Shown piece after piece: positions 1 to 35,313 of a stretch of DNA of 64,000 nucleotides. The translations under genes were made by a program, and so were the position numbers. The number at the start of each line of letters is the position of its first letter. Position 1 is the stretch's first letter. The stretch is from Balanoglossus misakiensis (Eukaryota; Animalia; Hemichordata). Where the stretch lies: NCBI GenBank assembly GCA_040954595.2, contig CM082597.2:4717244-4781243 (forward strand). Reading direction: 5' to 3'. The notes below the pieces were generated by a model, which saw nothing but the letters and a program-made list of their open reading frames with translations, ran no database searches and was not told where the DNA came from.

Positions 1-55
1 ATTCTGCCAACACAATTTTCTCATATACATATTTTGTAAATGACATGTGTTTCAG

Positions 56-3000
56 CCCAAGACTTTACTACTGTGATTGAAAATGAGTTGAAACTTGCCA
101 ACTATGAAGCAACGTGGATGGAAGCAAAAGAAGCGTGTGAGCAGGACAATGGGCATCTGTTGAGGTTCTACGACCGAGAGACCATGAATATAGTTGTCAG
201 CTATATAGCGTTATTAGATACGCCAGGTGATTAACATATTTAAGTGACTTAAGATAATGGCAAATTAAAGATAACATGGTCCAGACTTTGGTGATATAAC
301 GTATGTAGTGTGCTAAATGATCTTTCTGCGGAAATTTCACAAAATATCCTACTGCTTCCCGGTAAAGAGTAATAAAGTACCCAACTTTGTCATTACTGCT
401 TGCGATGTCTTCTCATTCAGAAGTACAATTGTTATAATAATTAACGTGACTTTTAAAGTACACAAATCGACATGTATCACTCAACGTTCAAGATGCCTTT
501 CCTCTTTGGAATGTTTTACAGTCATTATCTGGATCGACGCCAATGATAGAGAGACGGAAGGTCACTTTGTTTACTCGGACGGTTCGAGCATAGATGAATG
601 TGTGGCAGCATGGTACTCGTTAGAACCATATGATCCCGACAGTAAAGATTGTGTTTTTATATGGTAATGTTGTTTTAATTTGAAATTTTAATTGGAGTAA
701 CCCGACCTCAAGTTGCCCGATTTGTATTTGGCTGAAACGAGTTCTCTATTGGCGGAGCATTAGAACTGTGGATTGGAAATTATAATATGACAGAACCTCA
801 TGGCCAGATCGAGCAAACGACATTACATTTATATACAGAAAACTGCAGGTGTCAGATGAAATCGGAACGTCAATTGCAGCACATACATAATAATACATGT
901 AATGAGACATACGCTATAATAATAATCGTCCATAATGAGAATAACTATAGTATTATTTTACTTTTAGTCTCAATCTTAAATCGCTGATGGATGCCATGTA
1001 CTTGACCATTCAGCAGACACCTTAAAGTTGTGTTAAAAACACCAGTTCATACACACATCTTTGCATTCTCCTAGACCTGTATGTGTGTATAGTGAGATAT
1101 TCCGTCTGTTTTAATGATATAGGGCGTCAACTTTTTGGCATGCTTGGAGATGTGACCAAAGCTTTTCTTTCATGTGCCAGTATAAGAACAGAATTGGCAA
1201 CTCAAGTTCATGTAAGTGATATAAAGCTAATAATTAAATAAAAAAATATAAAAAATAATAATTTAAATAATAATAGGTTCGATTTCAACCAAACTTGCAC
1301 AAATCGAATTCAGCATCGAAAACAGAAATGCGAGGTGCCACGTCTGCCCTGTCAACTCATTTGCTGCTAATTCAAACTTTTCTCAATATAATACCACCAT
1401 GGTTAAAGTGTCTTTATCAGTAAATTAAAAACTTAATGATTGTACATAAAATCTCTTTGTGCTATGTTATAATTATACAATTCTTTAAACCCCCTAACCT
1501 TGTAAAAAAAATTGTAATAATAATAACAACAATCTACTTGCTATACATATCTCAAAAACAAAGGTGAATGAATAGTTTAATTCCCCTTCTTAAATCTTTG
1601 TTAGTGTCTCTTGATAGATTCAATGACGAATACAAGGTATCCAGATTCCTCGCAAGCTCCCGAGACGCCTATGAGTACTGCTTGAATGATGGAGGGGCTT
1701 TACTACGAGTACCTGACCAACAGACAATGGAATATGTTGTAAACATGGTTGACTCGGTTGACAATAGTCTTGGGATGCCTATTGGTAAGTATCTTGCGTG
1801 ATTCGCACAATTTTCAGAAATTTTGTATATTTGACATAGTTACTTTTACTTCCGGGTTTAAAACAGGTTAAAAGCAGCATGCCTTCCTGAAAAAATGATT
1901 ATTCATTCCATTATTTTTTGTTGCGTCTACATAAACTAAACCTGTCACTAGCAAAATGTCGCAGTTGTCCGGCCTAATATCAATTCTAATCTTTACGTCA
2001 ATAAAGGTAATATAATGTATAGAGTATTGTGGATAGATGGTGTGGATTTGTATACAGAGAATGAATGGACGCACTATGATGGGACACCAATGACTTACTT
2101 ACCGTGGTTGGATAATCAGCCAGACGGAACCTCTTCGAAAAATTGCATTACAGCAAATTTGTAATTATATATTTGTCTACATCAAACCACGTTTCCCTAC
2201 ACAATTAGACACTGTTAAGCACTGTATCCACAGCAAAACATTCGTCTGGATAAGGTGCACTGCTATGTAAACTAGAAAATGCACAGTGACTGCGCGTCCA
2301 TGATCTGTTGTCTCCATCTATAAACAGAGCACGTCTGTGCAAAAATTAAGTAATGAGCTGAAGGCCGATAATCATCTTATGTGCATGAATGTACTTTTGT
2401 GTGTACCAATATTACGTCCAATCCAAATGTTCTGCAAATTTTGCATTTGACATATTTTAAATAGTGGGCTGTATTCGCGTCCTTTCTTCTTTCATGTGTC
2501 GTCCCTTCGTTTCATCCAATTTTGTCTTTTCCAGACTAGTCACTGCGATCGTGTCTGTTGTTACATCAGCATACTGGCTGAGTTTCTAGTTTGGCTCATG
2601 CATATGTGGTGATTGTCGCCTTTTAATGAAGGCCAAGGAAATGTGACACAATTCAGATTCAGCTGATAACATGTTATAAATGATTTTAAACGTATTGAAC
2701 AGTATATTTGTTGGTAACGATTATTTATTGTCATTTTATCAGATTCGGTGGAACTAGTAAGGTGTACAGTGTGGATGATTGTCCACGTCTGCGTAGATTT
2801 GTCTGTCGATATGGTAGGTGTATATCTTTATGAAATCCTTCCACAGTACACCAGAGACTCCCATGCAAATTTGTGGTGATCAGGTTTCTAATGAGTGCAG
2901 ATTTATTGTATAGCAAAGTTGTGGCGTAATAATTGTACCACGTTTGTCGATAATCGTAACCCTTAATCAGATGTGACTTGAGTCACGAACATGTGTGACA

Positions 3001-4535
3001 TGCCAGTACTGAAATTTCGCCCACATTGTAAGGCTAACATCTCAGAAAAGATCTTCATCGAAATTTTTGCATTGGTTCTCTCTTGCGTGGGTCGGAAATC
3101 CTTCGTCACGAGAACGTTACATCATCCACATTACCAGCCGAGAAAATAAGTGTAAACGTCTTAAGAAATAAACGACAAAACCGTTTTACTAAGAGGTGTA
3201 TCCAATCTGCACCATTGATTTATTGCAGTTATAAGAAATTGCAATATTTGGCGTTGCAGTTTCTTGTTAAAAGTGAACCTAACAGACTTCAATGAATCAC
3301 TGATACATGCCGAAGTAAACATGGCGCCCTTTTGTGGCCTAATGCCTCTATAAATACCACTTATCCTACACCAGTTATTTCTTGTTGGTTTTTACATTAC
3401 AGGTGTGTCGTACACACCCAAACTGCCGAATATAAAATCTGAATGTTATAACAGTAGTCTGACGACACCTGGATATACAGGCCATGTTGGCTCTGACGTT
3501 ACTAACACCGGTTCTTCAGAAATGTCAACAGATGTCACAGAAGATACTGGCGCTGATGCTAAATCTGACACTAGCCCGACTGACACAGAATCCCTGTTAG
3601 AGTTAACTGTAATGCAGCGAACCGAAACGACAGATAATGAAGTTTTGACAGACATCCCTGACGACAAGGCCACCGAGAGTGTCTCTGGTTTCATCTCGAA
3701 GGAAAACCCTACTGAAACGGCTACAACTGTAGTGCGTGGGACTGAACCAGGCGTTGAGGGAACCCACACTGATTCTGTCTCCATATCAACGGATACAATC
3801 GACGCCAGCACCTTGCCTCCTAATACAGCATGTAAAGGTCCATTCTGCCAACATTTGCCAAGCATTAGTGTTGTCGATAGCAATTCGAAACTGCCCCACT
3901 GTAAGTATAAGTTCACTGTGCTTCATAGCCACACTTGTAGAAACAAAACACAATTGAATAATATAAAATGAGGCAGGGTGGCCTTAATATTTTTTGAAAC
4001 ACCTGATATCACGTCTTTATTTTGCCAGAGGTCAGTGCATCTTTCTTTCACGGTTTTGGCATCTGGCTGCATTTATGGTTGTCTGTGCTAGGCTACACTG
4101 TGCTGCTGTTGTGTGTGTGTGCACATGTGCGTGCGTGCGTGCGTGTGTGTGTGGTTTGTGATTGGCCATGTACCGGTCAATGGTAAAGTATATTTGCCCT
4201 TTGATTTTATTGTATATAGATGGTTACGCTTGCAAGTATATAATACTGTACTTCACAAGTAACCCGAATGGATCCTGTCCACGTCACAAGTAACCCGAAT
4301 GGATCCTGCCAACGCCCCATAGCCCAAGGCCTCATATTCTGCACTTAAGCTTTTTTGCTATCAATTTTATTTTTTCTTGACAGGTGACAAACTCGACAAC
4401 AATGGCAACACTTTCATAGGCCTAGTCCTAGGCTTTATCGCTGCATACCTGGCTGTGCATATTGTGTTGATACTCGGGATTTCTCGTTGTGTAAGAAACC
4501 TAGACTCTGCTCCGAAGTTGCAAAATGACGCATAG
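56..4535 (+). CDS. C-type lectin receptor, copy A (two CTLDs, mucin-like stalk, TM). The signal-peptide exon lies upstream of the window.
   Basis: Phase-consistent exons 56-226, 522-663, 1123-1211, 1605-1784, 2007-2160, 2743-2813, 3403-3900, 4384-4535. CTLD1: ATWMEAKEACEQDNGHL...WIDANDRETEGHFVYSDG...W..EPY..DCV..WRCDQSFSFMCQY. CTLD2: DAYEYCLNDGGALL...LWIDG...PWLDNQPDG..NCI..DDCPRLRRFVCRY. Thr/Ser/Asp-rich stalk, TM FIGLVLGFIAAYLAVHIVLILGI, tail SRCVRNLDSAPKLQNDA*. Confidence 0.88.
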
Positions 4536-5194
4536 AATACTGTTCTTGATTTGAGCGTTACTCATGTTATTGGTGCCGTTTCTTCATCTGACACAGTGAT
4601 CGAATGCAAAACATCAATTATAATCGTTAGTTAGGTTTCTGTTACAGTGTCACCATGTTTCTTGATTTCATTAATGATTGAGAACAAGCTAAATTAGTAA
4701 AGTCAGCGTTTTAACATAAGTAACTGTATTGAAATGGAATTACAACCATCTGTGAACAACGTAGTGCATGTTTATTTAATGATCATGGGTTTTCAATGTG
4801 AGTAGGACATTCGCTATGGATCTCGCTATTTATCATATGCACATGCGTACTGTCAATTATCATTCTGTCGCGACTTAACTCATGACCTTAGCTGTGCTGT
4901 CTTGTATTGCGTTTGTCTTTACAACGTGCCACATGAATGTGATACTTGATCGATAATTTTTGGAATATGGATGGTTTTGATCTTACTTATTAATGATTAT
5001 TGTTGTTTTAATAAACATACTTTAGTTCACTATCACTTCAAACTTCGCGTACGTGTTGCTGTATTCCCTCGAACTGAATTCGAAAAACGTAACGCCCATG
5101 CCAGCAAAGGGACATATGGACCCACACCAAACGAGTTGCAAGCAGCACCTATAAGTATTAGGTCAGAGCTTTACTGACTATCAAGTATCGACGG

Positions 5195-5253
5195 CCAGTC
5201 ACGTGGCTCTAATAGACCAGTCACGTGGCTCTAATAGACCAATTACGTGTCTC
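5195..5253 (+). repeat. 22-bp tandem repeat containing GTCACGTGG E-boxes (also at about 14592-14650)
   Basis: ccagtcacgtggctctaataga twice, plus a degenerate third copy ccaattacgtgtctc. Confidence 0.75.
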
Positions 5254-7022
5254 GTTCAGTTGACACACAATGCATCCACGATAACAATGCAGGCTCCTCA
5301 GTACATGACATTGATGAAAGGGCATGCGCAGGAAATGGAATTAACAATCCCCTGTTCGTGGGATTGAAAGAATCGCTACACTGCTGTTTGTAGCGATGCG
5401 CCTGTCGGTACGCGCCTCTGGTTATCAGGTCTCAGGGGACTCTGATAGTTCTTGTACTGGTATGCGGGTTGATGCAGTATAAGTTCTTGGTCCGTCAACC
5501 TGCGGTCTTTGCAAGTACATGTATTGTGCATGGAGTATCAATTTGAGTAGCAACAATTGGTGGCTGTGACTGTTTTTTTTAACTTCCTGTGTCATCTATG
5601 GGAGTTAAGACAACGGTCAGAATGACAGAAATTAATGTTTGACGAGCAAAGAACATTTGTCATGCTGTGTTTTGATCCCCATTCAACCACGCCAGTCAAG
5701 GCCACTGAAGTTCTTAACTGTTTCCTATCGGCACTAAAATTGTACAGAAGAATGCGGTGTCATCTGGAGAAAGAGATCTGAGTTTCCATCATATCATGTC
5801 ATTGCAGTGCAAACAGAATTGTTATCCATGAATGCAATAACCTGCGAAGCTTATAGGTTCGTGTGGGTTAATCTGAAATCCCCAACCAAATTAATTGTTT
5901 TGACAGACAAATCATAATCTGAATACACTGGGGGAATACCGCAAATTGCACAAACTATAAACATTTTGCTCGAAAGGGACTTAATACTTGTCCACCTCTC
6001 AAACAAGTAATACATGTACTTCATTAATCCCAAATCCTACATCGACCTTCGTAATGCGAAAATAAGAATTCGAACATTTGGGGTTTGTCGGTCTATGACA
6101 ATGGTACTCAGACACACTAACCGATTTTGAATTGTTCAGTAGCTGTCATGAGTTACGAACCAAAATCTCTCAACACAAACACCCAGACAGCAACAACAAT
6201 GATACACTGAACACCCAAAGTTTTACGTTTCACTGCGAATCTATTTGTCTCAGGAAGAAAAATAATCATAGTACAAGCACTGAACTTAAATGTTACAAGG
6301 GTTCTTACCCTAATATTGTGATGTCCTCAAGAAACTTGTATAAGGTCCGCGGTAATATCACACACGTGTTGAGCGGACGCGATAATTCAGTGTTCCGTGA
6401 GTTCTCTGCACCGACCCGACGATGGTTCACGCTGGCGTGCTGCTTTCTCTCAAAGTTCTTTCCTGAAGTCCTCTCAGAAGAAATTAACGGGTTCACTTCA
6501 CTTACAGTTGCTGGCGTATACAAGCATTTTAAGTCCGAGAGCAACGCTGAATTCAAACCAACAGGACATACTCGACGTGCCTGGGCGAGCTGAACATACC
6601 AGTCCCGGTCGCTCATGGCCGAGTGCAACTTGTCTGTTTTCTGTTCGGCTCACGCCACTAGACTGCCGTTGCCGAGAGTCAAAAATCAAAACCCTTACGT
6701 AATATTCAAAATACCCAGGTGTACCTCTACGGCTAATACTATGTTAATGACGTACACCCTTATTGTTCACCCACCACTGATATTTAAATTCTGTGCATTC
6801 GTTGTACAATCGTAACACATGCAACTTGACTGAGAATGTGCTGAGAATTTGGGTTGTGACACACAATAAAGGCGATACAAGTCAACGAACAGATATTCAG
6901 TACTGTGTATAACATACTTTTTGTACATAGTAAGACACTATAAATTAGCTGCAGTGGATTTCGATTTTCACTACATTTCATCTTTTGTAACTTAGCTTTT
7001 CTCTATTGTTAATTGAGTACAG

Positions 7023-7574
7023 ACTATTGACATGGGATATATGAACGTTGAAATGTTACGCAAAAGTCTGGTTTCATTCATCAAAGAAGACAAGTTAGTT
7101 AAAGAGAAGTTTGCGTTGTTTTATGATGCCATGAGAGATAAAGAGGAAGAAGAGTTGCCGTCGATTGATGATGTAAGTATCTGAAGAGAGAAAGAGAGAG
7201 ACAGTATTGATGATGATGATGATGTTCAAAAGACTGGCCACTGATTGATTAACTAAAAATTCTCGGACACATGTACTTACAGAGAGAGAGATGGTATTGA
7301 TGATGATGATGATGTTGTTCAAAAGACTGGCCATTGATTAATTAACTAAAAATTAAGGATTCTCTGACACATGTACTTGCCTTCAGTATACTCACTCTTG
7401 TTTATGTGTTTTGTTTTTTCGTTTTAGGCATGGTTGATTCTAGACTATGCAAAGAAAGGTTTCCTGACTCGCAGTGATGTTGCCAGTTTGGACAGAGAGA
7501 TTCTGAAAGACTTTGCACGACTAATAGATCCTCCACATGGTCCAGCAGCTGGTGAAATTCACGATGAACTTTGA
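7023..7574 (+). pseudogene. Orphan last two exons of an ER-resident JmjC paralog ending in HDEL
   Basis: Exon 7023-7172 (TIDMGYMNVEMLRKSLVSFIKEDKLVKEKFALFYDAMRDKEEEELPSIDD, cag/gtaagt) and exon 7428-7574 (AWLILDYAKKGFLTRSDVASLDREILKDFARLIDPPHGPAAGEIHDEL*). These are homologous to exons 6-7 of the gene at 27628-31883 (TIDIGYGDVYLLKK...; VWPLLDDQGKGYITTEDVQAWDREKLKTFSR...HEEL) with the same phases. No upstream exons occur before the duplication junction at about 6900. Confidence 0.82.
7190..7378 (+). repeat. Local duplication of about 90 bp with (GA)n and (GAT)n, inside the orphan JmjC intron
   Basis: gagagagag..gtattgatgatgatgatgatgtt..caaaagactgg..aactaaaaatt..gacacatgtactt occurs twice. Confidence 0.75.
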
Positions 7575-8394
7575 CCTCAAATAATGGTGTCCAATTCAAA
7601 TAATCACAATTTCAAATCATGATACATTATTTTACTTGGTTTGATACATTCTCATTTTTTACACAAAATTTTTGTATTCAAACAAGGATTATAATATTCC
7701 TAACAACAACTGCATTCACTACAGTTATTTTCTCATGATTTTAAACTCAAAGAAATCATTTAGAAGATTTTGGGGGTTTAAATGAATGACTGTTATATAA
7801 ACACTGGGTGATGTATATCCAAGGTTTAGAGTTTGTACGGAGTATAACTACAGTTTGACAATATGTATATCAGATCAATTTTCATTATGAATTTGAAAGA
7901 TTTTTTTGATGCAAGAAACAAATCAACAATACATGTACATTAAAGCCTCTAGAGCTGCCACTTTGTGCATAATTTTCATGATTTATTTTTTATTTTTATA
8001 GAAATAAGCTGACTGATAGGTATACATGAACATCTCATTGTAGCTTCACATTGCAATTTGAACAGGTTATATATTAAACTGTTGAGCAATATAATTTCCA
8101 ATGGTGCTCATCTTAGAATAAAGTATTGAGACTCTATGGTTTGGTTTCGACCACTGAATTGATTTCATAATAAGGTTTCAGCAAATAAACTTTTCCTGAA
8201 AATGACATATGTTGTTGTTGGGTTTTTGATGGGATATTGTCTTTTAGGATAATGTGTCATCGTATCAGTATTCGATACAATGTGCTTGTGGCGTAAACAT
8301 TCGACGAAACTTGATTCGTCTCTGACGACGAATTCTCTCAGCCATCTGGTGCATGCACATTGTAAACAGCTCAACTCACAGTCGCTTTGGAACG

Positions 8395-11300
8395 ATGGAG
8401 AAACTACATCGATGGCTGTGCTACCTCACTCTTGTATCCGTGGTAATTTTCTCACATACCCAGGTGACGGTGAACGGTATTGTAGACCATTTTCATGTAT
8501 TCAACTTCAATGAATTCCTGATGGTAATCTCAGTATGAGAGTAGCAGTGTTTTACAACTTCATCACGACGTTTCGAGCAAAGTGACAATGATCACAAATC
8601 ATAACATTTTTTTTATAATTATATTATGAAATTTCGGAATACACGTTCTAGTCATGTACCCTCAGTTGCCAACACGCTATAAATATTTGAAGTTAAGTTT
8701 AGATGTTTAGTTTGACATTTAGAACAGTACTGCCAACACAATATTCTCTTTTTTAAAGTAACATGCATATGGTAGTTTAGATGTTTTAGTTCGACACTAA
8801 GATCTATTCTGCCAACACACTTTTCTCATATACATATTTTGTAAATGTCATGTGTTTCAGCCCAAGACTTTACTAATGTGATTGAAAATGAGTTGAAACT
8901 TGCCAACTATAGTGCAACGTGGCTGGAAGCAAAAGAAGCATGTGAGCAGGACAATGGGCATCTGTTGAGGTTCTACGACCGAGAGACCATGAATATAGTT
9001 GTCAGCTATATAGCGTTATTAGATACGCCAGGTGATTAACATATTTAAGTGACTTAAGATAATGGCAAATTAAAGATAACATGGTCCAGACTTTGGTGAT
9101 ATAATGTATGTAGTGTGCTAAATGAACTTTCTGCGGAAATTTCACAAAATATCCTACTGCTTCCCGGTAAAGAGTAATAAAGTACCCAACTTTGTCATTA
9201 CTGCTTGCGATGTCTTCTCATTCAGAAGTACAATTGTTGTAATAATTAACGTGCCTTCTAAAGTACACAAATCGACATGTATCACTCAACGTTCAAGATG
9301 CCTTTCCTCTTTGGAATGTTTTACAGAAAACGTCTGGATCGACGCCAATGATAGAGAGACGGAAGGTCACTTTGTTTACTCGGACGGTTCGAGCATAGAT
9401 GAATGTGTGGCATCATGGGAAACGTGGGGACCAAATAATTACGGCGATAAAGATTGTGTTTTTATATGGTAATGTTGTTTTAATTTGAAATTTTAATTGG
9501 AGTCACCCGACCTCAAGTTGCACGATTTGTATTTGGCTGAAACGAGTTCTCTATTGGCGGAGCATTAAAACTTTGGATTGGAAATTATAATATGACAGAA
9601 CCTCATGGCCAGATCGAGCAAACGACATTACATTAATATATATATAACAAGGCACCGTTCGTTGCGTGAACTAACCAACCACAGCGACCGCGTAATTTGT
9701 ACAGATGACGGCAAGAGTATGCCACAGACAGAAAACTGCAGGTGTCAGATGAAATCGGAGCGTCAATGGCAGCACATACATAATAATACATGTAATGAGA
9801 CATACGCTATAATAATAATCGTCCATAATGAGAATAACTATAGTATTATTTTACTTTTAGTCTCAATCTTAAATCGCTGATGGATGTCAAGTACTTGACG
9901 AATCAGCAGACACCTTAAAGTTGTGTTAAAAACACCAGTTCGTACACACATCTTTGCATTCTCCTGTATGTGTGTATAGTGAGATATTCCATCTGTTTTA
10001 ATGATATAGGTGGTCAACTTTATGGATTGTCGGGAGATGTAACGAAAGATGTCGTTTCATGTGCCAGTATAAGAACAGAATTGCCAACTCAGGTTTATGT
10101 AAGTGATAGTAAAAGTTAATAATTAAAAAAAAATATATAAATAATAATAATTTAAATAATAATAGGTTCAATTTCAACCAAACTTGCACATATCGAATTC
10201 AGCATTGAAAACAGAAATGCGAGGTGCCAAGTCTGCCCTGTCAACTCATTTGCTGCTAATTCAAACTATTCTCAATATATACCACCATGGTTAAAGTGTC
10301 TTTATCAGTAAATTAAAAACTTATTGATTGTACATAAAATCTCTTTGTGCTATGTTATAATTATACAATTCTTTAAACCACTAAACTTGTAAAAAAAATT
10401 GTAATAATAATAACAACAATCTACTTGCTATACATATGTAAAAAACAAAGGTGAACGAATAGTTTAATTCTCCTTCTTAAATATTTGCCAGTGTCTCTTG
10501 ATAGATTCAGTGACGAATACAAGGTATCCAGATTCCTCGCAAGCTCCCGAGACGCCTATGAGTACTGCTTGAATGATGGAGGGGCTTTACTACGAGTACC
10601 TGACCAACAGACAATGGAATATGTTGTAAACATGGTTGACTCGGTTGACAATAGTCTGGGGATACCCTTTCGTAAGTATCTACTTCATCCTTCTGTCAGA
10701 CATTGCAGTTTTGTTGTGTATTGATTTGTACGGGGTTGTAGTTTATTTTATTTGATGTAATGCTTTATGGGTTGTGTTGCGTTGTGATGTGTTAGGCTAC
10801 GGTACACAATGTACTATGGTATGTTATTATGTCATGTATAAAATTGTTGTGTTTTGCATATGAATGTATGTTGTTTAGGTTATTCTGTTGCATCATAGAA
10901 CAATATATTCTAGACTGATGTGGTGATCTCGTTGACTAAGGCATTACATGTACATGGTTTTCAAAAAAGGGTAGGTGGTTAATGATGTTTTTTTATTTTG
11001 GTATTTTTATCTCTCTGGCTGCCGTAGTGTAGAAGAATGACGTCATAGTTCTTGCGTGATTCGCACAATTTTCAGAAATGTTGTATATTTGACATACATG
11101 TAGTTACTTTTACTTCCGGGTTTAAAACAGGTTAAAAGCAGCATGCCTTCCTGAAAAAAATGATTATTCATTCCATTATTTTTTGTTGCGTCCACATAAA
11201 CTAAACCTGTCACTAGCAAAATGTCCCAGTTGTCCGGCCTAATATCAATTCTAATCTTTACGTCAATAAAGGTATAAAGTATAGAGTATTGTGGATAGAT

Positions 11301-13513
11301 GGTGTGGATTTGTATACAGAGAATGAGTGGACGCACTATGATGGGACACCAATGACTTACTTACCATGGAAGGAAGGCGACCCAAATGAAGACCTCAGTA
11401 TAATAGAACACTGTATTCAAGCGGAATTGTAATTATAAATTTGTGTTCACCAAACCAAGTTTTCTCCAGCAGGATGTTGGTGAATGTAGCACAGTTTCAC
11501 TTAGACACTATAAAGCACTGTATCCACAGCAAAACATACGTCTGGACACGGTGCACTGCCATGTTAACTAGAAAATGCACAGTGACTGCGCGTCCATGAT
11601 CTGTTGTCTCCATTTATAAGTAGAGCACATCTGTGCCTGTAGGCCGACGATCATCTTATGCGCATGCATGTACTTTAGTGTGTACAAACATACGTCAATC
11701 CAAATGTTCGGTAAATTATGAGTTCGACAGTTCAAATAGTGAGCTGCATTCGCCCCTTTCTTATTTCATGCGCACCGAATAAGTAGACTTCAGTTTTGTC
11801 CCTTCGTTTGTTATCAAATTTGTTGTCTTTTCCCGTTCTCCAACACAGACTAGTCACCGCCATCTTGTCTCTTGTTAGAACAACCCACTGCCCCAGCCTC
11901 TCGTTTGGCCCATGCGCATAAGGTGATCGTCGCCCTTTAATCTAGCACAAGCAAATGTGACACAATTCAGATTCAGCTGATAATATGTTAAAATGATTTC
12001 TCGCCATAAACGTATTGAACAGTTTATTTGTTGGTAACGATTTTTCGTTGTCGTTTTCTTAGATACAGCGAACCTACTAAGATATTCAATTTGGAATATT
12101 GTCCACGTTTTTCGAGATTTGTCTGTCGATATGGTAGGTGTATATCTTTGTACTTAATCAAATCTAGCACAAGTGCACCAGAGACTCCTATGCAAATTTG
12201 TTAAGCAATACTTTTTATCTGAAATAAAGACGAATGGCGGCCTTTTATAATTTTGATCAGCTTTCTAATGAATGCAGAATCATTGTATTTCAAAAGTTAT
12301 GGCGTAATAATTGTACCTCGATATGTTAAACTTTTAACGGATATGAGCTGAGTCACGAACATGTGTGACATGCCAGTACTGAAATGTCGCCCACATTGTA
12401 AGAGTACCATCTCAGAAAAGAACTTCATCGCGACTTTTTGTATTAATTGGCTCTTTTGCGTGGCTCATAAATCCTTCGTCGCGAGAACGTTACATCATCC
12501 ACATTACCAGCCGAGAAAACGACTGTAAATGTTTTATGAAATAAACGACAAAACCATTTTTACTAAGAGGTGTATCCGAACTGCACCATCAATTTATTGC
12601 AGTTCGAATGAACGATGTTATAAGAAATTGCAATATTCAGCGTGGAAGTTTCTTGTAAAAAATGGACCTAACAGACTTCAATGAATCACTAATACATTCC
12701 AAAGTGAACATGGCCTAATGCCTATTTGAATACCACTTATCCTAAACCAGTTATTTCTTGTTGGTTTTACATTACAGGTGTGTCGTACACACCCAAACTG
12801 CCGTATATAAAATCTGAATGTTTTAACAGTAGTCTGACGACACCTGGATATACAGGCCATGTTGGCTCTGACGTTACTAACACCAGTTCTTCAGAAATGT
12901 CAACAGATGTCACAGAAGATACTGGCGCTGATGCTAAATCTGACACCAGCTTGACTGACACAGAATCCCTGTCAGAGTTAACTGTAATGCAGCGAACCGA
13001 AACGACAGATAATGAAGTTTTGACAGACATCCCTGACGACAAGGCCACTGAGAGTGTCTCTGGTTTCATCTCGAAGGAAAACCCTACTGAAACGGCTACA
13101 ACTTTAGTGCGTGGGACTGAACCAGGCGTTGACGGAACCCACACTGATTCTGTCTCCATATCAACGGATACAATCGACGCCAGCACCTTGCCTCCTAATA
13201 CAGCATGTAAAGGTCCATTCTGCCAACATTTGCCAAGCATTAGTGTTGTCGATAGCAATTCGAAACTGCCCCACTGTAAGTATAAGTTCACTGTGCTTCA
13301 CAGCCACACTTAAAGAAACAAAACACAATTGAATAATATAAAATGAGGCAGGGTGGCCTTAATATTTTTTGAAACACCTGATATCACGTCTTTATTTTGC
13401 CAGAGGTCAGTGCATCTTTCTTTCACGGTTTTGGCATCTGGCTGCATTTATGGTTGTCTGTGCTAGGCTACACTGTGCTGCTGTTGTGTGTGTGTGCGCA
13501 TGTGCGTGCGTGC

Positions 13514-13551
<38 letters not shown>

Positions 13552-13932
13552 TTTGTGATTGGCCATGTACCGGTCAATGGTAAAGTATATTTGCCCTTTG
13601 ATTTTATTGTATATAGATGGTTACGCTTGCAAGTATATAATACTGTACTTCACAAGTAACCCGAATGGATCCTGTCCACGTCACAAGTAACCCGAATGGA
13701 TCCTGCCAACGCCCCATAGCCCAAGGCCTCATATTCTGCACTTAAGCTTTTTTGCTATCAATTTTATTTTTTCTTGACAGGTGACAAACTCGACAACAAT
13801 GGCAACACTTTCATAGGCCTAGTCCTAGGCTTTATCGCTGCATACCTGGCTGTGCATATTGTGTTGATACTCGGGATTTCTCGTTGTGTAAGAAACCTAG
13901 ACTCTGCTCCGAAGTTGCAAAATGACGCATAG
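8395..13932 (+). CDS. C-type lectin receptor, copy B (complete: signal peptide, two CTLDs, stalk, TM)
   Basis: Exons 8395-8476 (MEKLHRWLCYLTLVSVVIFSHTQVTVN, signal peptide), 8861-9031, 9327-9468, 10010-10098, 10492-10671, 11272-11428, 12063-12133, 12778-13275, 13781-13932. All introns are GT-AG and the frame is open throughout. Confidence 0.9.
13486..13550 (+). repeat. (GT)n/(GCGT)n microsatellite; a shorter version is at about 4110-4153 in copy A
   Basis: Directly visible. Confidence 0.9.
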
Positions 13933-16900
13933 ATTACTGTTCTTGATTTGAGCGTTACTCATGTTATTGGTGCCGTTTCTTCATCTGACACAGTGATCGA
14001 ATGCAAAACATCAATTATAATCGTTAGTTAGGTTTCTGTTACAGTGTCACCATGTTTCTTGATTTCATTAATGATTGAGAACAAGCTAAATTAGTAAAGT
14101 CAGCGTTTTAACATAAGTAACTGTATTGAAATGGAATTACAACCATCTGTGAACAACGTAGTGCATGTTTATTTAATGATCATGGGTTTTCAATGTGAGT
14201 AGGACATTCGCTATGGATCTCGCTATTTATCATATGCACATGCGTACTGTCAATTATCATTCTGTCGCGACTTAACTCATGACCTTAGCTGTGCTGTCTT
14301 GTATTGCGTTTGTCTTTACAACGTGCCACATGAATGTGATACTTGATCGATAATTTTTGGAATATGGATGGTTTTGATCTTACTTATTTATGATTATTGT
14401 TGTTTTAATAAACATACTTTAGTTCGCTATCACTTCAAACTTCGCGTACGTGTTGCTGTATTTCCTCGAACTGAATTCGAAAAACGTAACGCCCATGCCA
14501 GCAAAGGGACATATGGACCCACACCAAACGAGTTGCAAGCAGCACCTATAAGTATTAGGTCAGAGCTTTACTGACTATCAAGTATCGACGGCCAGTCACG
14601 TGGCTCTAATAGACCAGTCACGTGGCTCTAATAGACCAATTACGTGTCTCGTTCAGTTGACACACAATGCATCCACGATAACAATTAATGCAGGCTCCTC
14701 AGTTCATGACATTGATGAAAGGGCATGCGCAGGAAATGGAATTAACAATCCCCTGTTCGTGGGATTGAAAGAATCGCTACACTGCTGTTTGTAGCGATGC
14801 GCCTGTTGGTACGCGCCTCTGGTTATCAATTCTTTAAAATGATACGTCGGTCTCAGGTGTTATTGTTGATGCAGTATAAGTTCTTGGTCCGTCAACCTGC
14901 GGTCTTTGCAAGTACATGTATTGTGCATGGAGTATCAATTTGAGTAGCAACAATTTGTGGCTGTGACTGTTTTTTTAACTTCCTGTGTCGCTTACTGTAA
15001 TATACATCTATGGGAGTTAAGACAACGGTCAGAATGACAGAAATTATTGTTTGACGAGCAAAGAACATTTGCCATGCTGTGTTTTGATCCCCATTCAACC
15101 ACGCCAGTCAAGGCCACTGAAGTTCTCAACTGTTTCCTATCGGCACTAAAATTGTACAGAAGAATGCGGTGTCATCTGGAGAAAGAGATCTGAGTTTCCA
15201 TCATATCATGTCATTGTAGTGCAAAGAGATCTTAGTTTCCATCATATCATGTCATTGCAGTGCAAACAGAATTGTTATCCATGAATGCAATAACCTGTGG
15301 AGCTTATCGGTTCGTAAGGGTTAATCTGAAATCCCAAACCAAACTAATTGTTTTGACAAACAGATCATAATCTGAATACACTGGGGGAATACCGCGAATT
15401 GCACAAACTATAAACATTTTGCTCGAAAGGGACTTAATACTTGTCCACCTCTCAAACAAGTAATACATGTACTTCATTAATCCCAAATCCTACATCGACC
15501 TTCGTAATGCGAAAATAAGAATTCGAACATTTGGGGTTTGTCGGTCTATGACAATGGTACTCAGACACACTAACCGATTTTGAATTGTTCAGTAGCTGTC
15601 ATGAGTTACGAACCAAAATCTCTCAACACAAACACCCAGACAGCAACAACAATGATACACTGAACACCCAAAGTTATACGTTTCACTGCGAATCTATTTG
15701 TCTCAGGAAGAAAAATAATCATAGTACAAGCACTGAACTTAAATGTTACAAGGGTTCTTACCCAAATATTGTAATGTCCTCAAGAAACGTGTATCAGTTC
15801 CGCGGTAATATTACACACGTGGTGAGCGGACGCGATAATTCAGTGTTCCGTGAGTTCTCTGCACCGGCCCGACGATGGTTCACGCTGGCGTGCTGCTTTC
15901 TCTCAAAGTTCTTTCCTGAAGTCCTCTCAGAAGAAATTAACGGGTTCACTTCACTTACAGTTGCTGGCGTATACAAGCATTTTAAGTCCGAGAGCAACGC
16001 TGAATTCAAACCAACAGGACATACTCGACGTGCCTGGGCGAGCTGAACATACCAGTCCCCGTCGCTCATGGCCGAGTGCAACTTGTCTGTTTTCTGTTCG
16101 GCTCACGCCACTAGACTGCCGTTGCCGAGAGTCAAAAATCAAAACCCTTACGTAATATTCAAAATACCCAGGTGTACCTCTACGGCTAATACTATGTTAA
16201 TGACGAACACCCTTATTGTTCATCCACCACTGATATTTAAATTCTGTGCATTCGTTGTACAATCGTAACACATGCAACTTGACTGAGAATGTGCTGAGAA
16301 TTTGGGTTGTGACACACAATAAAGGCGATACCAGTCAACTAACAGATATTCAATATTATCATATGCCCATGGTCGGCTACTCGAAAATGCAAATCAAAAT
16401 ATAAATTGCCATCATCGCCCCTCTTTGTGGAAAATTATTTTTCACGATTAAACTGTCAGTCAGTATTACCATGGTTATCAGAAGCATAAAGCAGCATAGA
16501 ATGGAAGCCATAAATATGGCTGAAATCTGATCACCCGTTTTGGGATATTGATGTCACAGACAGCGAAAGAGACACAGGGAGAGACATCGGTACAACATAA
16601 GTTTCCCTGATATTTTATCAATACCACATATATAAATATTTGTTCCATTAATAGTATTTTCAAGGGATTTGGAGGTTTGTTGTGATAAAAAACAGCATTT
16701 TAACTATCATTATCTCATAGCCTTTTATCAAAACGTTCTATTTAATTCCAGACACAGAGATGATAATAACTTGTCAATGTAATTTTAATCAGATGTAACG
16801 CCTAATGGCTTTTCTATGATAACCGTTTGTGCAAATAACATTGCACTTTAGTTGATGAAATGTATCAGGTTAGCTTGAATACAGCACAAAACATTAGGTT

Positions 16901-18099: not shown

Positions 18100-20067
18100 T
18101 TAGGTCTTGCGACGAAGTGCACGTTTGGCCACTCGGACGGAATCTTCATACATCGACAGAGTATCACCCTCGTAATGCTTAGCAAGTACCATGTTCCCAA
18201 GCCACCACATAGTCAGTGGAGTCCCTCTCATTTCCAAACCATACACGAATGTCGGCACTATGTTCATAGTTTTCAGAACCGCTCCAATGAAAACATCTTC
18301 GAATCGCACGAGTTTTGTGAAATGTGCACCTATGTACACGTCCCTGATGACGTCACGCGAGAGGATATAAGCCCCACCCGAGAAGTAAAGAGGGTACTGA
18401 TCATCTCGGTACTCTTTTCTTGACATGTACCATTTAGATGTTTTGTTCCTGTCCACATCCCGCATGTAGTGCATTTTTCCTCCGGCAAATTGCAACGTCG
18501 GCACGTTTAACAGATATCGAACAACATTGTCTACATTGAGAAACATATCTTCATCAATCTTCATGAGGAACTGTGCAGTAGGACAATACATAAAGGCCCA
18601 TTTTATCATCATCACAGACTTCAATGTCAAATTTTCGTAAGTGTCTAGGAAGGCAGGAATAATCATGTCTTGGTGTTTTGTGTTTTCGGCGATGAGTTCG
18701 TCATCAAGGGATTTCGAGTTGGTTACTCCCACCACGAACAGCTGAACAACTGTCTTCCCATGATGGATGCTTTGCGTTTCCCTCCGGAGTTTTCGAATGA
18801 GGGTTCGTTCTTTAAAGTGCTCGGGTATTGAAGGGATGAGAATAAGAAGAAATACATCCTTGTTTTGAGCGGACGACTGTATACAGACAGAATCATGCGT
18901 TGTTAAAAAGTCGATACGGAAGGAGTTGATAATGCGCGGGGTCACTTTGGAGTTGCCCAGAAATGCCTGCACGACCTCTCTATCTGGGAATTGCGAATTA
19001 CAAATATCTTTGGTTAACATTTTCGGTATCAGTTCATAAAACTGAAATAAGAAGAAATCCACATTGGTGACTATTTGCAGTTGGCGAACATCGCAGAGGT
19101 TTGCTTTGTGTGACCCTCTCATGTCAAATGGTGAATGGTTGACGATGTCTATACGTGCCATTTCAAGTAGAATTCCCAAGTAGATGTCTTCAATCGGGAA
19201 CGGTTTCGCCAGTTTTGCCACCACGTTGAGTTTTTCAACGGTATCAGCTGACATCAGCAGGGTTTGTCCCATTGGATAGGGAGGGTATTCAGTAAATGGC
19301 CATGTTGTGTTTGTTATGTTCAGAATTTCGACGGTATCGTCACGCTTGCCACCAGCTACCACAAATCCTGCTGCGAACTTATCACCGGCGCCAAGTGTTG
19401 CAACATACTGCATTAATTCGCCAGCATATATGTAGACGTTATCCCTTGCGAACAGGATAAAGCTTGGTTTCCGAGCACAACGGCTTGCCCAGTTCAGCAT
19501 GTCGTTTATCCTGGCCGTAGTGTTTTCCTGCGAGTCAACAATATCGGAGAGAATCATGTCCTTATGTTGGCGAAACTCGTCCCGAATAAGAGTGCTCGTT
19601 TTCGGGTAGAGTGGTTTGGGGACATAGAAGACGACATCCATGCAATGCTCAAGCGGAGTGCCCTGCAAACTTCGCGCCCACGATTCTCGAATCGCCGCCC
19701 GGCGACCGTAGCCTCCTTTGGGATGTGACGTCACCAGTACCAACAGGATCAGACCATCCTCAGTGTTCTTGTTCTTGGTGAATTTGTAGTCTACGAGATC
19801 ATTTCCCTTGTAGTAGGATTGGTTACGAGTGACTTGGAACTGTGCGTCGAGTGCCCAAAATTCTTCATCAGTGAGCGTCGATTGTGACTCATAATCAGCG
19901 CTTGTCGCGTTAACCGTGTCCTTACGCTTACCTGTGTAAATCCTAGATGAATACAGACTAACAAAACCCAAACAATATATCAGTCCGCTCACTGATACCA
20001 GAGGAAGAAAAACCTTCCGATACATAGTAGCCATTTTAAAGAAATGAAGACTTGGAGCGAACAACAT
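18100..20067 (-). CDS. Intronless beta-1,3-galactosyltransferase-like (GT31) protein with two tandem catalytic domains; type II membrane
   Basis: 655-aa ORF (alternative start MATMYRK at 20034). TM VFLPLVSVSGLIYCLGFVSLY. Domain 1: LVLVTSHP..RRAAIRESWA..YPPYPMG..IEDIYLG. Domain 2: LILIPSIPEHFKER..DTYENLTLKS..FLMKIDEDMFLN..YPLYFSGGAYILS..FEDVFIG. Confidence 0.92.
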   Translation of the reverse strand: MLFAPSLHFFKMATMYRKVFLPLVSVSGLIYCLGFVSLYSSRIYTGKRKDTVNATSADYESQSTLTDEEFWALDAQFQVTRNQSYYKGNDLVDYKFTKNKNTEDGLILLVLVTSHPKGGYGRRAAIRESWARSLQGTPLEHCMDVVFYVPKPLYPKTSTLIRDEFRQHKDMILSDIVDSQENTTARINDMLNWASRCARKPSFILFARDNVYIYAGELMQYVATLGAGDKFAAGFVVAGGKRDDTVEILNITNTTWPFTEYPPYPMGQTLLMSADTVEKLNVVAKLAKPFPIEDIYLGILLEMARIDIVNHSPFDMRGSHKANLCDVRQLQIVTNVDFFLFQFYELIPKMLTKDICNSQFPDREVVQAFLGNSKVTPRIINSFRIDFLTTHDSVCIQSSAQNKDVFLLILIPSIPEHFKERTLIRKLRRETQSIHHGKTVVQLFVVGVTNSKSLDDELIAENTKHQDMIIPAFLDTYENLTLKSVMMIKWAFMYCPTAQFLMKIDEDMFLNVDNVVRYLLNVPTLQFAGGKMHYMRDVDRNKTSKWYMSRKEYRDDQYPLYFSGGAYILSRDVIRDVYIGAHFTKLVRFEDVFIGAVLKTMNIVPTFVYGLEMRGTPLTMWWLGNMVLAKHYEGDTLSMYEDSVRVAKRALRRKT

Positions 20068-21284: not shown

Positions 21285-24200
21285 TCATATATGTATCATT
21301 TTGATACAGTCTTGTTGTGTCACAATCAATACGTGACTCCGCTCTTTGCTTAGCGCTAAATATCGAGGCCTGTCTAATTGACCGTCACCCAGGTAACGTA
21401 GAAAGTCGCCATTTGCAGCGAAGTGTGCTAGGTTACTCATCCCCCAGTTGCACACATAGACGCCATCTTGATTCTCATCGAGGCATAGACCCGTGGGACT
21501 TTGCAAGTGGTGCTCGCCAAATGAGAACAGACTTGTGAGTTCACCATCCAAAACATGGACACGATTCTTGTCATGTTCTGAGACCAGCACCTGGTTTCTC
21601 TTGTTGAAGAGCAAGGACACTGGTTGGCTAACCTGACCTGCTTCAGTAGCTGAAACTTCTGCACCATCTGTACTGTACTTCCTGATGTACCCTTTGTAGT
21701 CTGCTATGTAAACATACTTGTTGCTGCCTAAACATATAGCATAGGGAATGATTTCGTTCCCCGTACCGAAGATGCTCAGTACCTGGCTCTTGCTGTTTGT
21801 CACAACAGCCTGCTTGTTTTCCTTGTCAGTGATGTAGAATCTTCCATCCTCCCCTACCGCAACGTCAGATGGTGTAAATGGTTTGGGAAACGCCAGGAAT
21901 TCAACTACAGCACGGCACTGGTTTCTCTTGTCCAGTACCTGAAGACGATTATTCTTCATGTCGGTCACGACAACTTGGCCATTCTCCTTGACAAAAATGC
22001 CGTTGGCCCAGTCAACTTGTCCAGGCTGTTTACCAGACTTTGTTAGATCCCAAGTAGTGCCCTCTGGTGGAATATCTGTATGAGCATAGAGAAGATAAAA
22101 CAAGAGGCTTTATAAGCTTTTGAAATATATGTTTGATTTGTAGAATTGGTGATTTTGGGGTCATGAAAATGACCAATTACTTGCCTTGCTGTACTCTATC
22201 AAGGTCTGAATGGACTTCCTTGAAGTGTGCCCCCAATGTTTCTCCCCTCTCGGCTTCTGATGCTGCCTTTACAGAAACACCTTCTAGTTGTTCTGCCAGG
22301 TTGTCCATTTTCTTCTCTAACACATTAGAAGTCGAGCTGTGGACATTGTTGATCTTGCTTTTGAGTTCTATGAAGTTCCTCAGGCACTCCTCTTCCTCTG
22401 CGGTGTATGATCTGCTCTCCGTCTGCAAAGTTGCTTCAAGCAATGACTTGTCTTTAATCTTTGCTTGAAGCAAAGAGTTGCTGATCGCCAGCTGACTGAT
22501 CATCTCAGCAGCCACCTCCTTGTCACCCACAAGCGTTGTCAGAGGTTTCTCTATATACGCAAGGAGTGACTCTCTCGTTGGTATGCGGGACGGGCATTTT
22601 TCTGGATGTGATCGCATCAAATTAAGGCACTCTAAGGTATGTCCTATTGGCAGTGCCTTGTTCTCCTTGACTAGTGTTTCAGCTTCGGATGGAGCAGCAA
22701 TACTGTACCGACGAGATGGTATCCTTTGCTTACCTAAGTATAGAATGTAATGTTTGGATATTAGTCCCTAAATTAATAGAATCACACTGTTTACCCATTA
22801 TTTGAATGAAGGTAGTGAATTATGTTTCCATACAGCAGTTCTTTGTGTCTACTGACACTTTTTAATGACTACCCCAGCCACATGATGAAAGTTCCTTGAA
22901 GTGATAAAAACACTTGTAAGTGCTTGTTACACAAGGCAGATGAATACACGAGCACAGTAATGCATGTGTAATATGGCCGACGGCTGTAAGTTACCTTTTT
23001 TCAGTAATTCAATCTCCTTCTTACAAACTATATACTCATCCGCATCAATGTAGACATCCAGAGATATATGGCTTGCTTTGTATCGTATACTTCTCTCATA
23101 GTCCATTATGTCTTCCTCCATATTGGTCTCGATGTCCCCCTTCACATAGTTGGACCACAAAGCTTCCACTGCCTCCAGAGATTCACAGGACAAGACATAA
23201 CCCAGACCCGTTCTGTCGACTTCAATCATGTCGATGGCTTCCAGCTTTAACCCAGTGTGGATGTCCTCAGTGATCATCCGTGCCATGCCTTCGTTGAACG
23301 GCCTCTTGCCTTCCTTCTCATAAAACATGTGCTCCACGACCAGCATTGACCCATCCTGTTCTGGAACCCCATCCAAGACTTTGACATGCACGGTGATTCT
23401 GCCTGTTGAATCAAGAAAATGGTCAGGACAGAACATATGTTTTAAAAAGCCACGTTTCAAGAAATGGTTCTGATTCATAACTTCAAACACTCAGAGGTTT
23501 ACCCAACTTGGTTTCCTTAAGCAAATAACTGTTGTCACAGACTACTTAAAAGCTGCTATCCCTAGCCACATGAAAGTCACCACAAATCAAGATCTAATGG
23601 CATTACCTATCTAACAGCATGCATTAAGGCATTTCATCATCTGGCTATGACCAACTTGATTTTTAGGTATGCACCTTAAAGTCATTCACCGAATGTTAAA
23701 TCTAGTCTGTCTACAAGCAGTGTGAACGTTGCAGTTGACTAGTATGTAAGCACATTACAAGAAGTCATACAGCATGGAAAACTTAACCAAAATGGTCGAT
23801 AGAGTGTGATTTTGTCCCTTTAATGTAGTTTAACATACATGGATCACGCCATTTCTTGGGTCCAAAGTCATATCCACTTGTTATTTCTTCAAGGTTGGGG
23901 TACACAGGAATCGCCCTGTCAGGATGTTCAGAGGCTATATACGAAAATATACAAGAAAATGGTTTAGTGTGATAAACATAGAAACTACCAGTACAACCTT
24001 CAAAGTTGAAAGAAAACAAACTTACAGAGTTGTTTTGCCATTTAACTTGTTATCTATGGAGGATCTCATTTTGGTTTCTTTACGTCTTATATTAATCAAA
24101 ACAGGTGAAGGATTAACAAAGGGACATGTACCTTTGGATGTGGTTGGACACTCATCTGTAGCTTCGGATGTTGAGTCTGTCCATCCCAAGTAATCTTCAA

Positions 24201-35200: not shown

Positions 35201-35313
35201 GTATCTTCGCCCAGAAGGCTTGTCAGCAACAGAGTTACCGCCGAGAAGAGTACAACCAATTTCAAAATGCGAAAACATGTTTTCTGATACATTTTCAAAG
35301 TTGAACGCACGGA
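32284..35313 (-). CDS. O-fucosyltransferase-like (GT-B, POFUT/GT68-GT65-like) type II membrane protein, paralog 1
   Basis: Exons about 35313 (or 35358)-34819, 33986-33307, 33214-33058, 32897-32762, 32420-32284. TM ILKLVVLFSAVTLLLTSLL plus stem; QGGPNFFYENFK; motif I FLSMHWRN; CVYIAHP; motif III SLVEQEIVYRGHVFIASLTTNWSEFVAEER. Confidence 0.82.
32982..33030 (+). repeat. (CT)n microsatellite in an intron
   Basis: Directly visible. Confidence 0.85.

What the first reader, a model, noticed from the sequence alone, without database searches (positions are those of the whole stretch)
522..12133. Near-identical lectin receptor duplicates that are hypervariable only in the ligand-binding loops
Counted by hand from the sequence: intron 2 (295 nt) differs at about 5 positions between copies. 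The adjacent exon (522-663 vs 9327-9468) differs at 19 of 142 nt in 13 codons, and the next exon (1123-1211 vs 10010-10098) at 17 of 89 nt in 13 codons. All 26 changed codons alter the amino acid; none is purely synonymous. CTLD1 reads AAWYSLEPYDPDSKDCVFIWASTFWHAWRCDQSFSF versus ASWETWGPNNYGDKDCVFIWWSTLWIVGRCNERCRF. Structural Cys/Trp, stalk, TM and tail are essentially unchanged. Established knowledge: this region (long loop and beta3-beta4) is the CTLD binding face. Inference: a variable recognition-receptor family under intense diversifying selection or targeted micro-conversion, for immune, allorecognition or gamete recognition.
Basis: partly seen in the sequence, partly recalled or inferred. 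Interest (0 to 1): 0.88.

Follow-up and report, generated by a model that had tools for sequence, protein, structure and literature searches.

The report
Acorn worm receptors with hypervariable tips
An acorn worm carries two neighbouring, nearly identical genes for a cell-surface lectin-like receptor that differ mainly at the predicted binding surface, and more versions turn up in public reads, pointing to a likely immune-type recognition family diversified by selection and by DNA exchange between copies.

Summary
The counts are exact. Two tandem copies of a predicted type I membrane protein (signal peptide, two C-type lectin-like domains (CTLDs), Ser/Thr stalk, TM, 17-residue tail) lie in an enteropneust hemichordate genome. 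In CTLD1, exons 3-4 differ at 36 of 231 nt. All 26 changed codons change the residue, against 3.0% divergence in nearby introns (omega 3.3-4.0, p 0.01-0.03). Changes sit at the EPN, WND and extended-site positions. A public contig carries copy A's loop letter for letter, another spans the tandem junction, and three further loop variants appear, so this is a real family, not an assembly error. Two corrections. (1) CTLD2 is not loop-only: its binding face lies in a 1.25-kb block whose introns are 13-15% diverged and whose omega is about 1, an old cassette swapped in or shielded from homogenisation. (2) The Ca2+/sugar site is broken in all four domains, so 'lectin' is unproven. Short-tract conversion cannot be excluded for CTLD1. 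Function is untested: non-self recognition is most likely, gamete recognition second. The process is known (opsins, oyster bindin, suREJ, Ly49); the family was not found in my searches.

The parts
56..226 (+). Copy A exon 2: CTLD1 N-half (exon 1 of copy A lies before the window)
   Evidence: AG/GT ends, open frame; same exon of copy B hits Pfam Lectin_C at E 9e-4, below the curated cut-off
522..663 (+). Copy A exon 3: WID strand and long loop of CTLD1; variable 522-529 and 607-643
   Evidence: 19 of 142 nt, 13 codons, all amino-acid changing; loop letters found in a public contig
1123..1211 (+). Copy A exon 4: beta3-beta4 (WND-equivalent) to last Cys and linker; variable 1123-1168
   Evidence: 17 of 89 nt, 13 codons, all amino-acid changing
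1605..1784 (+). Copy A exon 5: CTLD2 N-half
   Evidence: phase-consistent splice sites, 6 of 180 nt differ
2007..2160 (+). Copy A exon 6: CTLD2 WID strand and long loop (QPD)
   Evidence: PDB hits to mannose receptors E 1e-6; loop part 29 of 61 nt differ
2104..3352 (.). Old diverged block in copy A (copy B 11366-12728): CTLD2 loop, intron 6, exon 7, most of intron 7; left edge at the conserved loop Trp
   Evidence: change-point fit 16.9% inside vs 3.5% before and 1.5% after
2743..2813 (+). Copy A exon 7: CTLD2 beta3-beta4 to last Cys
   Evidence: 18 of 71 nt, 13 of 13 changed codons amino-acid changing
3403..3900 (+). Copy A exon 8: Ser/Thr-rich stalk
   Evidence: 32% S+T in copy B; 10 of 498 nt differ
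4384..4535 (+). Copy A exon 9 coding part: TM helix and 17-residue tail without Tyr; poly(A) signal at 5010
   Evidence: hydropathy peak; 0 of 152 nt differ
6899..6900 (.). End of the duplicated unit in copy A (tandem junction)
   Evidence: similarity to 16353 ends here; a contig covers 6849-7184 with 1 mismatch and 1 gap
8395..8476 (+). Copy B exon 1: predicted signal peptide
   Evidence: ATG, hydrophobic core read by eye, phase-1 donor joining exon 2 in frame
8861..9031 (+). Copy B exon 2
9327..9468 (+). Copy B exon 3: CTLD1 long loop (GPN)
   Evidence: aligns with collectin-11, MRC2 and DC-SIGN loops
10010..10098 (+). Copy B exon 4
10492..10671 (+). Copy B exon 5
11272..11428 (+). Copy B exon 6: CTLD2 loop (DPN, two residues longer than A)
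12063..12133 (+). Copy B exon 7
   Evidence: third-variant letters at 12069-12096 in public contigs
12778..13275 (+). Copy B exon 8: stalk
13781..13932 (+). Copy B exon 9 coding part: TM and tail; poly(A) signal at 14407

Best explanation
These are two germline members of a multi-copy family of predicted cell-surface receptors with two C-type lectin-like domains, whose binding faces likely diversify under positive selection while DNA exchange between copies likely keeps the scaffold, stalk and membrane anchor alike, most likely to recognise changing foreign (microbial or parasite) ligands. Shown: tandem duplicate, open frames, gene anatomy, amino-acid-changing excess in CTLD1, a sharply bounded old block over the CTLD2 face, patchy background divergence (0.4% to 5%), further loop variants in public contigs. 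Inferred: (1) the pair is a young duplicate or a recently homogenised one; (2) CTLD1 loops changed by selected point substitutions, perhaps helped by short conversion tracts from paralogs; (3) the CTLD2 face came in as one cassette from an older paralog, or was shielded from conversion; (4) binding is Ca2+-independent and probably to protein or non-canonical glycan, on the same face that DC-SIGN and NK-type receptors use; (5) the stalk holds the domains off the cell, and with no Tyr motif in the tail the protein would capture or tether ligand or signal through a partner; (6) the selecting agent is non-self.
For:: counts; omega 3.3-4.0 for exons 3+4 (LRT p 0.031, 0.020, 0.010 for kappa 1.5, 2, 3); changes at codon positions 1/2/3 = 15/14/7; 0 of 46 amino-acid-identical degenerate codons differ; 19 of 33 columns differ between the loop Trp and the last F-x-C in CTLD1 and 27 of 39 in CTLD2, against 9 of 94 and 8 of 100 outside (2 of each are end-offset columns), p 9e-8 and 8e-13; EPN- and WND-equivalent positions vary. 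plus recalled DC-SIGN numbering puts F313 and V351 (extended site, PMC7618208 passages) on variable positions 58 and 95; block 2104-3352 at 16.9%; 3950-5350 at 6 of 1401 vs introns 2-5 at 41 of 1361, p 6e-8; three more loop types; in one, 9 of 15 visible codons differ from copy B and all 9 change the residue (read by eye). Divergence peaks under conversion are a described signature (PMC3924837 passages). Hemichordate immune cell clusters express mannose-receptor-like C-type lectins (PMC13554239 passage).
Against: Only two full sequences; the omega test is modest, was one of 7 overlapping partitions, and the region was picked after seeing it. With changes confined to the loops the lack of synonymous codons is borderline (P about 0.05). 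CTLD2 gives omega 0.7-1.0, so selection there is inferred from the block's position only. One extra variant shows 1 synonymous codon among its 4 visible changed codons. Copy B's exact loop was not among the contigs shown. The tail has no ITAM, ITIM or Tyr-based motif, unlike most signalling immune receptors. No expression or ligand data support an immune role.
Confidence: 0.55

Rival explanations
1. Same evolutionary mechanism, but the protein is a gamete-recognition receptor (sperm or egg surface) diversifying through sexual conflict or polyspermy avoidance in a broadcast spawner.
For: Sea urchin REJ1-3 carry C-type lectin domains under positive selection, and REJ1 is heavily glycosylated with one or two TM segments (PMC1934368 passages). 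Oyster bindin lectin repeats diversify by selection around the pocket plus recombination in an intron (PMC5712786 passages), much like the CTLD2 cassette. A tail without signalling motif fits an adhesion role.
Against: No REJ, EGF, PKD or GPS module. Variation is among many co-existing paralogs, whereas bindin diversity comes from one or a few genes. No expression data for either side.
Confidence: 0.2
2. The family is a self-recognition or cell-identity code (homophilic adhesion, allorecognition), with paralog-specific tips on a shared stalk, as in clustered protocadherins or Hydractinia Alr (both recalled).
For: Constant stalk, TM and tail with two variable outer domains; broken sugar site suggests protein ligands. 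Protocadherin conversion is cited as a case of local divergence under conversion (reference list of PMC3924837).
Against: Acorn worms are solitary (general knowledge); no evidence of homophilic binding or mosaic expression.
Confidence: 0.12
3. The CTLD1 differences were not selected in this pair: short conversion tracts copied loops from older paralogs, and relaxed constraint on loops did the rest.
For: Older paralogs with frameworks about 8-13% diverged and very different loops exist; changes come in dense 37-46 nt clusters with near-identical flanks (0 of 77, 2 of 117, 2 of 97, 0 of 27); few degenerate unchanged codons lie inside the clusters, so power is low.
Against: Whole-exon import from a 14%-diverged donor is unlikely (P 0.001 for 0 of 46 silent differences). 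Three or four separate tracts would all have to land on one protein face. The donor-like variant is itself 9 of 9 amino-acid changing, so selection is still needed somewhere.
Confidence: 0.09
4. Somatic or enzyme-driven hypermutation (DGR-like adenine mutagenesis or deaminase editing) makes the variants.
For: The C-type lectin fold is the scaffold of DGR variable proteins (search listing and abstract starts); the variable face is the same by recall.
Against: No base bias: 20 of 36 differences involve A, 15 of 36 are transitions, all six pair types occur. No template repeat in the window. Variants occur as DNA contigs at germline-like depth.
Confidence: 0.02
5. Assembly artefact: base errors, or two alleles placed in tandem.
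For: Background divergence (3%) is within reach of allelic divergence in marine invertebrates (general knowledge); the runs may be the assembled sample.
Against: A contig carries all of A's loop letters (13 listed rows match; 14 differences, as expected). A contig spans the junction at 6899 with 51 letters on the short side, and a 332-nt piece of B's intron 6 is matched with 0 differences. No frameshifts or stops.
Confidence: 0.02

Closest known systems
Group V NK-type C-type lectin-like receptors (Ly49, NKG2D, dectin-1, LOX-1)
   Same: CTLD without Ca2+ site II motifs (PMC7618208 passages); multigene, fast-evolving ligand face (Ly49: recalled). NKG2D contact residues Tyr152, Ile182, Met184, Tyr199 (PMC6105697 passage) fall, by recalled motif offsets, on positions 58, 93, 95, 110, all variable here.
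   Different: Those are type II, single-CTLD, with tail motifs or charged-TM adaptors; this is type I with two CTLDs, a long stalk and a tail without Tyr.
Sea urchin receptor for egg jelly (suREJ1-3, PKD1 family)
   Same: Ambulacrarian membrane proteins with C-type lectin domains under positive selection (PMC1934368 passages).
   Different: No REJ module or other PKD1 parts here; suREJ selection was measured between species, here between paralogs.
Oyster sperm bindin (F-type lectin repeats)
   Same: Selected sites around the binding pocket plus recombination through introns (PMC5712786 passages).
   Different: Different fold, secreted acrosomal protein, one or few genes with alternative splicing.
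Mannose receptor family and invertebrate multi-CTLD type I proteins (MRC1/MRC2-like)
   Same: Nearest sequences found: amphioxus MRC2-like protein at 28% over both domains; PDB hits to MRC1, MRC2, collectin-11.
   Different: Only two CTLDs, no ricin or fibronectin II domain, Ca2+ site broken, no endocytic Tyr motif.
Red/green opsin and RHD/RHCE duplicates (divergence peak under gene conversion)
   Same: Homogenised introns with a local peak of divergence at functional sites (PMC3924837 passages).
   Different: Those preserve two fixed functions; here at least five loop types suggest open-ended diversification.

Membership tests
[quoted passage not shown] | Four core Cys and WIGL-type beta2 motif in register with solved CTLDs | tested here: met
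   WID motif, loop Trp, C3/C4 and last F-x-C align in both domains; Pfam Lectin_C on single exons E 9e-4 and 6e-3, below the cut-off for half-domains
[quoted passage not shown] | CTLD fold in three dimensions | not testable with these tools
   No model of the spliced domains was made; each domain is split over three exons
Ca2+-dependent C-type lectin (canonical CRD) | EPN or QPD triad in the long loop | tested here: inconclusive
   EPY (A1), GPN (B1), QPD (A2), DPN (B2); intact in 1 of 4
Ca2+-dependent C-type lectin (canonical CRD) | Site II Glu two before C3, and WND on beta4 | tested here: not met
   Lys at the Glu position in A1, B1, A2 (Glu in B2); WND replaced by WHA, WIV, YSV, FNL; 0 of 4 keep WND
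Group V NK-type CTL receptors | Type II topology, single CTLD | tested here: not met
   Signal exon, two CTLDs, C-terminal TM
Group V NK-type CTL receptors | CTLD lacking Ca2+ site II | tested here: met
suREJ / PKD1 family | REJ module (with GPS/PKD or multi-TM parts) | tested here: not met
   After CTLD2 only a 166-residue S/T stalk, TM and tail; no Pfam match on the stalk
Mannose receptor family (group VI) | Ricin and fibronectin II domains, 8-10 CTLDs (recalled) | tested here: not met
   513-residue protein with two CTLDs
Diversity-generating retroelement target | Template repeat, reverse transcriptase, adenine-specific changes | tested here: not met
   No template repeat in the window, no adenine bias; the rest of the genome was not available
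Innate immune receptor | Expression in immune or barrier tissue and binding to non-self | not testable with these tools
   No RNA holder listed

The most novel reading that the evidence does not exclude
This is the first diversified recognition-receptor family of hemichordates: a dozen or more germline two-domain CTLD receptors whose two binding faces are shuffled as independent cassettes between copies, giving a combinatorial, individual-specific repertoire for non-self or gamete recognition, built on the face of the lectin fold that NK receptors and DGR proteins also vary.
Probability: 0.25. Interest if true: 0.8.

Novelty: new variant of a known kind. Interest (0 to 1): 0.55.

Why it matters
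Echinoderms, amphioxus and tunicates each have described diversified recognition families (recalled: SpTransformer, VCBP, Fester/FuHC); I found none described for hemichordates (searches; a 2026 review of immune diversification, PMC13428168, has 0 mentions of 'hemichordate'). A family with selected binding faces and exchangeable cassettes gives a concrete, testable handle on how acorn worms tell non-self or mates apart. It is also an unusually clean example in one gene of two routes to binding-site diversity: fast amino-acid change in one domain and an old cassette in the other. The evolutionary process itself is well known, which caps the surprise.

Tried and rejected
No whole genome was held, so paralogs could not be collected. 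Homolog searches: stalk exon vs longer proteins, 0 of 922 candidates; exon 2 vs longer proteins, 0 of 11; HMMER on representatives, 71 hits, all generic CTLD proteins at 25-44%, best 28% over both domains; metagenome contigs, 0 of 176 pattern matches confirmed; ESM Atlas gave only unnamed or weakly Lectin_C clusters. These are weak evidence that the family is lineage-specific, since short single-exon queries were used. No RNA holder listed. Run X3 holds a spliced contig of the neighbouring gene but shows almost no cover on the lectin exons: no conclusion drawn. Contig depth is not copy number; the 10-20-fold excess of one paralog class is a hint only. tblastn found no third copy in the window. 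Four look-ups of earlier findings returned nothing. The first splice model was out of frame and was corrected. Adenine or deaminase bias, DGR, haplotig duplication and base errors were considered and rejected (see rivals). Four-way sharing of letters among the five loop types was checked by eye and is compatible with a simple tree, so it is not evidence of shuffling in CTLD1.
Full report
Setting. The window is animal DNA. A GPCR at 62401-63495 has as nearest relatives proteins of Ptychodera flava (79%), Glandiceps talaboti (54-74%) and Saccoglossus kowalevskii (74%) (6 hits of 2888 candidates), so the host is an enteropneust hemichordate, probably a ptychoderid (inference). No whole genome was held.

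Anatomy. Self-BLAST shows one large direct duplication, 1-6902 against 8806-16355. Both copies hold the same eight exons with AG/GT ends and open frames; copy B also has a first exon at 8395-8476 that reads as a signal peptide. The predicted product of B has 513 residues: signal, CTLD1 (exons 2-4), CTLD2 (exons 5-7), a stalk with 32% Ser+Thr, one TM helix at 475-493 and a 17-residue tail without Tyr. Single exons match Pfam Lectin_C weakly and solved CTLDs (collectin-11, MRC2, MRC1, DC-SIGN).

Intron 2 differs at 5 of 295 nt. Exon 3 differs at 19 of 142 and exon 4 at 17 of 89, each in 13 codons, and all 26 change the residue. Introns 2-5 together differ at 41 of 1361 (3.0%); the contrast with exons 3+4 has Fisher p 3e-12. 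Within the exons the differences are packed into 607-643 (14 of 37) and 1123-1168 (14 of 46), with flanks of 0 of 77, 2 of 117, 2 of 97 and 0 of 27.

It is not an artefact. Three runs of one sample hold the stretch; they may be the assembled sample, so they test the assembly, not the population. A contig of depth 70.5 differs from copy B at 14 places over 9389-9490; the 13 listed are exactly copy A's letters. A contig covers 6849-7184 across the end of the duplicated unit, so the copies are truly adjacent, and a 332-nt piece of B's intron 6 is matched with no difference. B's exact loop was not among the records shown (2 of 2 in X1, 8 of 14 in X2), but another variant shares B's letters over the first half of the loop.

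Selection in CTLD1. A pairwise codon model gives omega 3.3, 3.6 and 4.0 for exons 3+4 at kappa 1.5, 2 and 3 (dN 0.22-0.24, dS 0.06; LRT p 0.031, 0.020, 0.010). Exon 2, exon 5 and stalk+TM+tail give no departure from 1. Scattering 36 neutral changes over the 77 codons yields 5.8 purely silent codons on average and none in 0.15% of 4000 runs; confined to the 27 loop codons the figure is about 5%. None of 46 unchanged degenerate codons differs. That fits the 3% background (P 0.25) but not whole-exon import from a 14%-diverged donor (P 0.001). Short tracts covering only the loops cannot be excluded.

Its loop (29 of 61 nt), exon 7 (18 of 71) and the introns around them (86 of 559 and 72 of 567, 21 indels) are all diverged. 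A change-point fit gives a block at 2104-3352 (B 11366-12728) with 16.9% divergence, against 3.5% before and 1.5% after; its left edge falls at the conserved loop Trp. Omega there is 0.7-1.0 with dS 0.3-0.7, and 4 of 18 unchanged degenerate codons differ, against 0 of 46 in CTLD1 (p 0.005). The background is patchy too: 6 of 1401 around the TM exon versus 3.0% in introns 2-5 (p 6e-8). So the CTLD2 face is an old cassette, either brought in from another paralog or shielded while the rest was homogenised. The second pattern is the described signature of selection under gene conversion in opsins (PMC3924837, passages).

Where the changes sit. Aligned with canonical CTLDs from stored proteins, 19 of 33 columns between the loop Trp and the last F-x-C differ in CTLD1 and 27 of 39 in CTLD2, against 9 of 94 and 8 of 100 outside, 2 of each being end-offset columns. 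The long loop with EPN/QPD and the WND on beta4 form the canonical site (PMC7618208, passages). Here the triad reads EPY, GPN, QPD, DPN, the site II Glu is Lys in three of four domains, and WND is lost in all four. Ca2+-dependent sugar binding is therefore unlikely (inference). Most remaining changes lie just before the WID motif in both domains. By the coordinates and recalled DC-SIGN numbering, position 58 equals F313 and position 95 equals V351, two of three extended-site residues named in that paper. By recalled offsets, the four NKG2D contact residues named in PMC6105697 (passage) map to variable positions 58, 93, 95 and 110. This suggests one surface, but no 3-D model of the spliced domains was made.

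The family is larger. Over exon 3, run X2 shows three further loop types (read by eye). One (depth 239) resembles B with three residue changes and one silent change among the five listed differences of nine. One (depth 253) differs from B in 9 of 15 visible codons, all changing the residue, and restores an EP triad and the Glu before Cys. One (depth about 2400) has a loop that does not align, while high-depth framework contigs differ at only 5 of 57 nt. In one search, contigs 8-14% diverged from A and B lie along the whole gene at depths of 900-1400 in X1, against 70-95 for A- or B-specific pieces, and their CTLD2 loop region does not align either. Depth is not copy number; some variants may be alleles; but more than two members are needed.

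Relatives. No ortholog was found. The best match over both domains is an amphioxus MRC2-like protein at 28%. The queries were single short exons, so this is weak evidence.

How it likely works. A stalked receptor presents two binding faces. Duplication and exchange between copies keep the scaffold uniform and move faces between copies; selection favours new faces. The most likely selecting agent is non-self: hemichordate immune cell clusters express mannose-receptor-like C-type lectins (PMC13554239, passage), and expanded CTL repertoires are typical of marine invertebrate immunity (PMC10140915, abstract start and passages). Against it, the tail has no signalling motif. Gamete recognition is the main rival, given selected lectin domains in suREJ (PMC1934368, passages) and oyster bindin (PMC5712786, passages). 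A self-identity code is third. DGR-like or deaminase mutagenesis is rejected on the base spectrum (20 of 36 differences involve A; 15 of 36 transitions) and the lack of a template repeat.

Novelty. Five searches showed no paper on such a hemichordate family; I saw listings and abstract starts only for most hits, the library lacks most subscription journals, and hemichordate genome papers and their supplements were not read. The process is known, the family and its two-route pattern appear new: new variant of a known kind, interest 0.55.

Noticed in passing
window 7021-7172 and 7428-7574 (+): Last two exons of an EF-hand-like protein ending in the ER-retention signal HDEL, between the two lectin copies; a contig in run X3 joins them with the intron removed. 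By eye it resembles the JmjC/cupin gene at about 28761-31880, which ends in HEEL. It may be a partial copy carried along with the duplication.
   Followed up: partly
window 8889-8916 and 10490-10600; copy B residue 43: A three-base change in exon 2 (Glu to Ser) creates an N-glycosylation sequon in copy B only; copy A has one in the linker instead.
   Followed up: no
window 599-601, 9404-9406, 10050-10052: CTLD1 has an extra Cys before the long loop in both copies, and copy B gains a further Cys near beta5; they could pair in B or allow dimers in A.
   Followed up: no
window 9640-9727 and 10679-11049: Copy B carries insertions of 88 nt in intron 3 and about 370 nt in intron 5 that copy A lacks; the second ends in a high-copy dispersed repeat.
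   Followed up: no
window 2395-2490 and 11755-11820: High-copy dispersed repeat inside intron 6, within the old block (loose ends); a possible substrate for exchange.
   Followed up: no
window 18103-20034 (-): Single-exon galactosyltransferase with two Galactosyl_T stretches (Pfam E 2e-67).
   Followed up: no
window 21288-25434 (-): NHL-repeat exon and a GT4-conflict glycosyltransferase exon (E 3e-16), possibly one or two genes of a type linked to conflict systems.
   Followed up: no
window 33306-44529 (-): Cluster of at least three O-fucosyltransferase-like paralogs, so glycan-making genes flank the lectin-like pair.
   Followed up: no
window 6099-6590 and 15552-16043 (+): A 164-codon stop-free frame kept in both copies of the downstream flank; no function assigned.
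   Followed up: no
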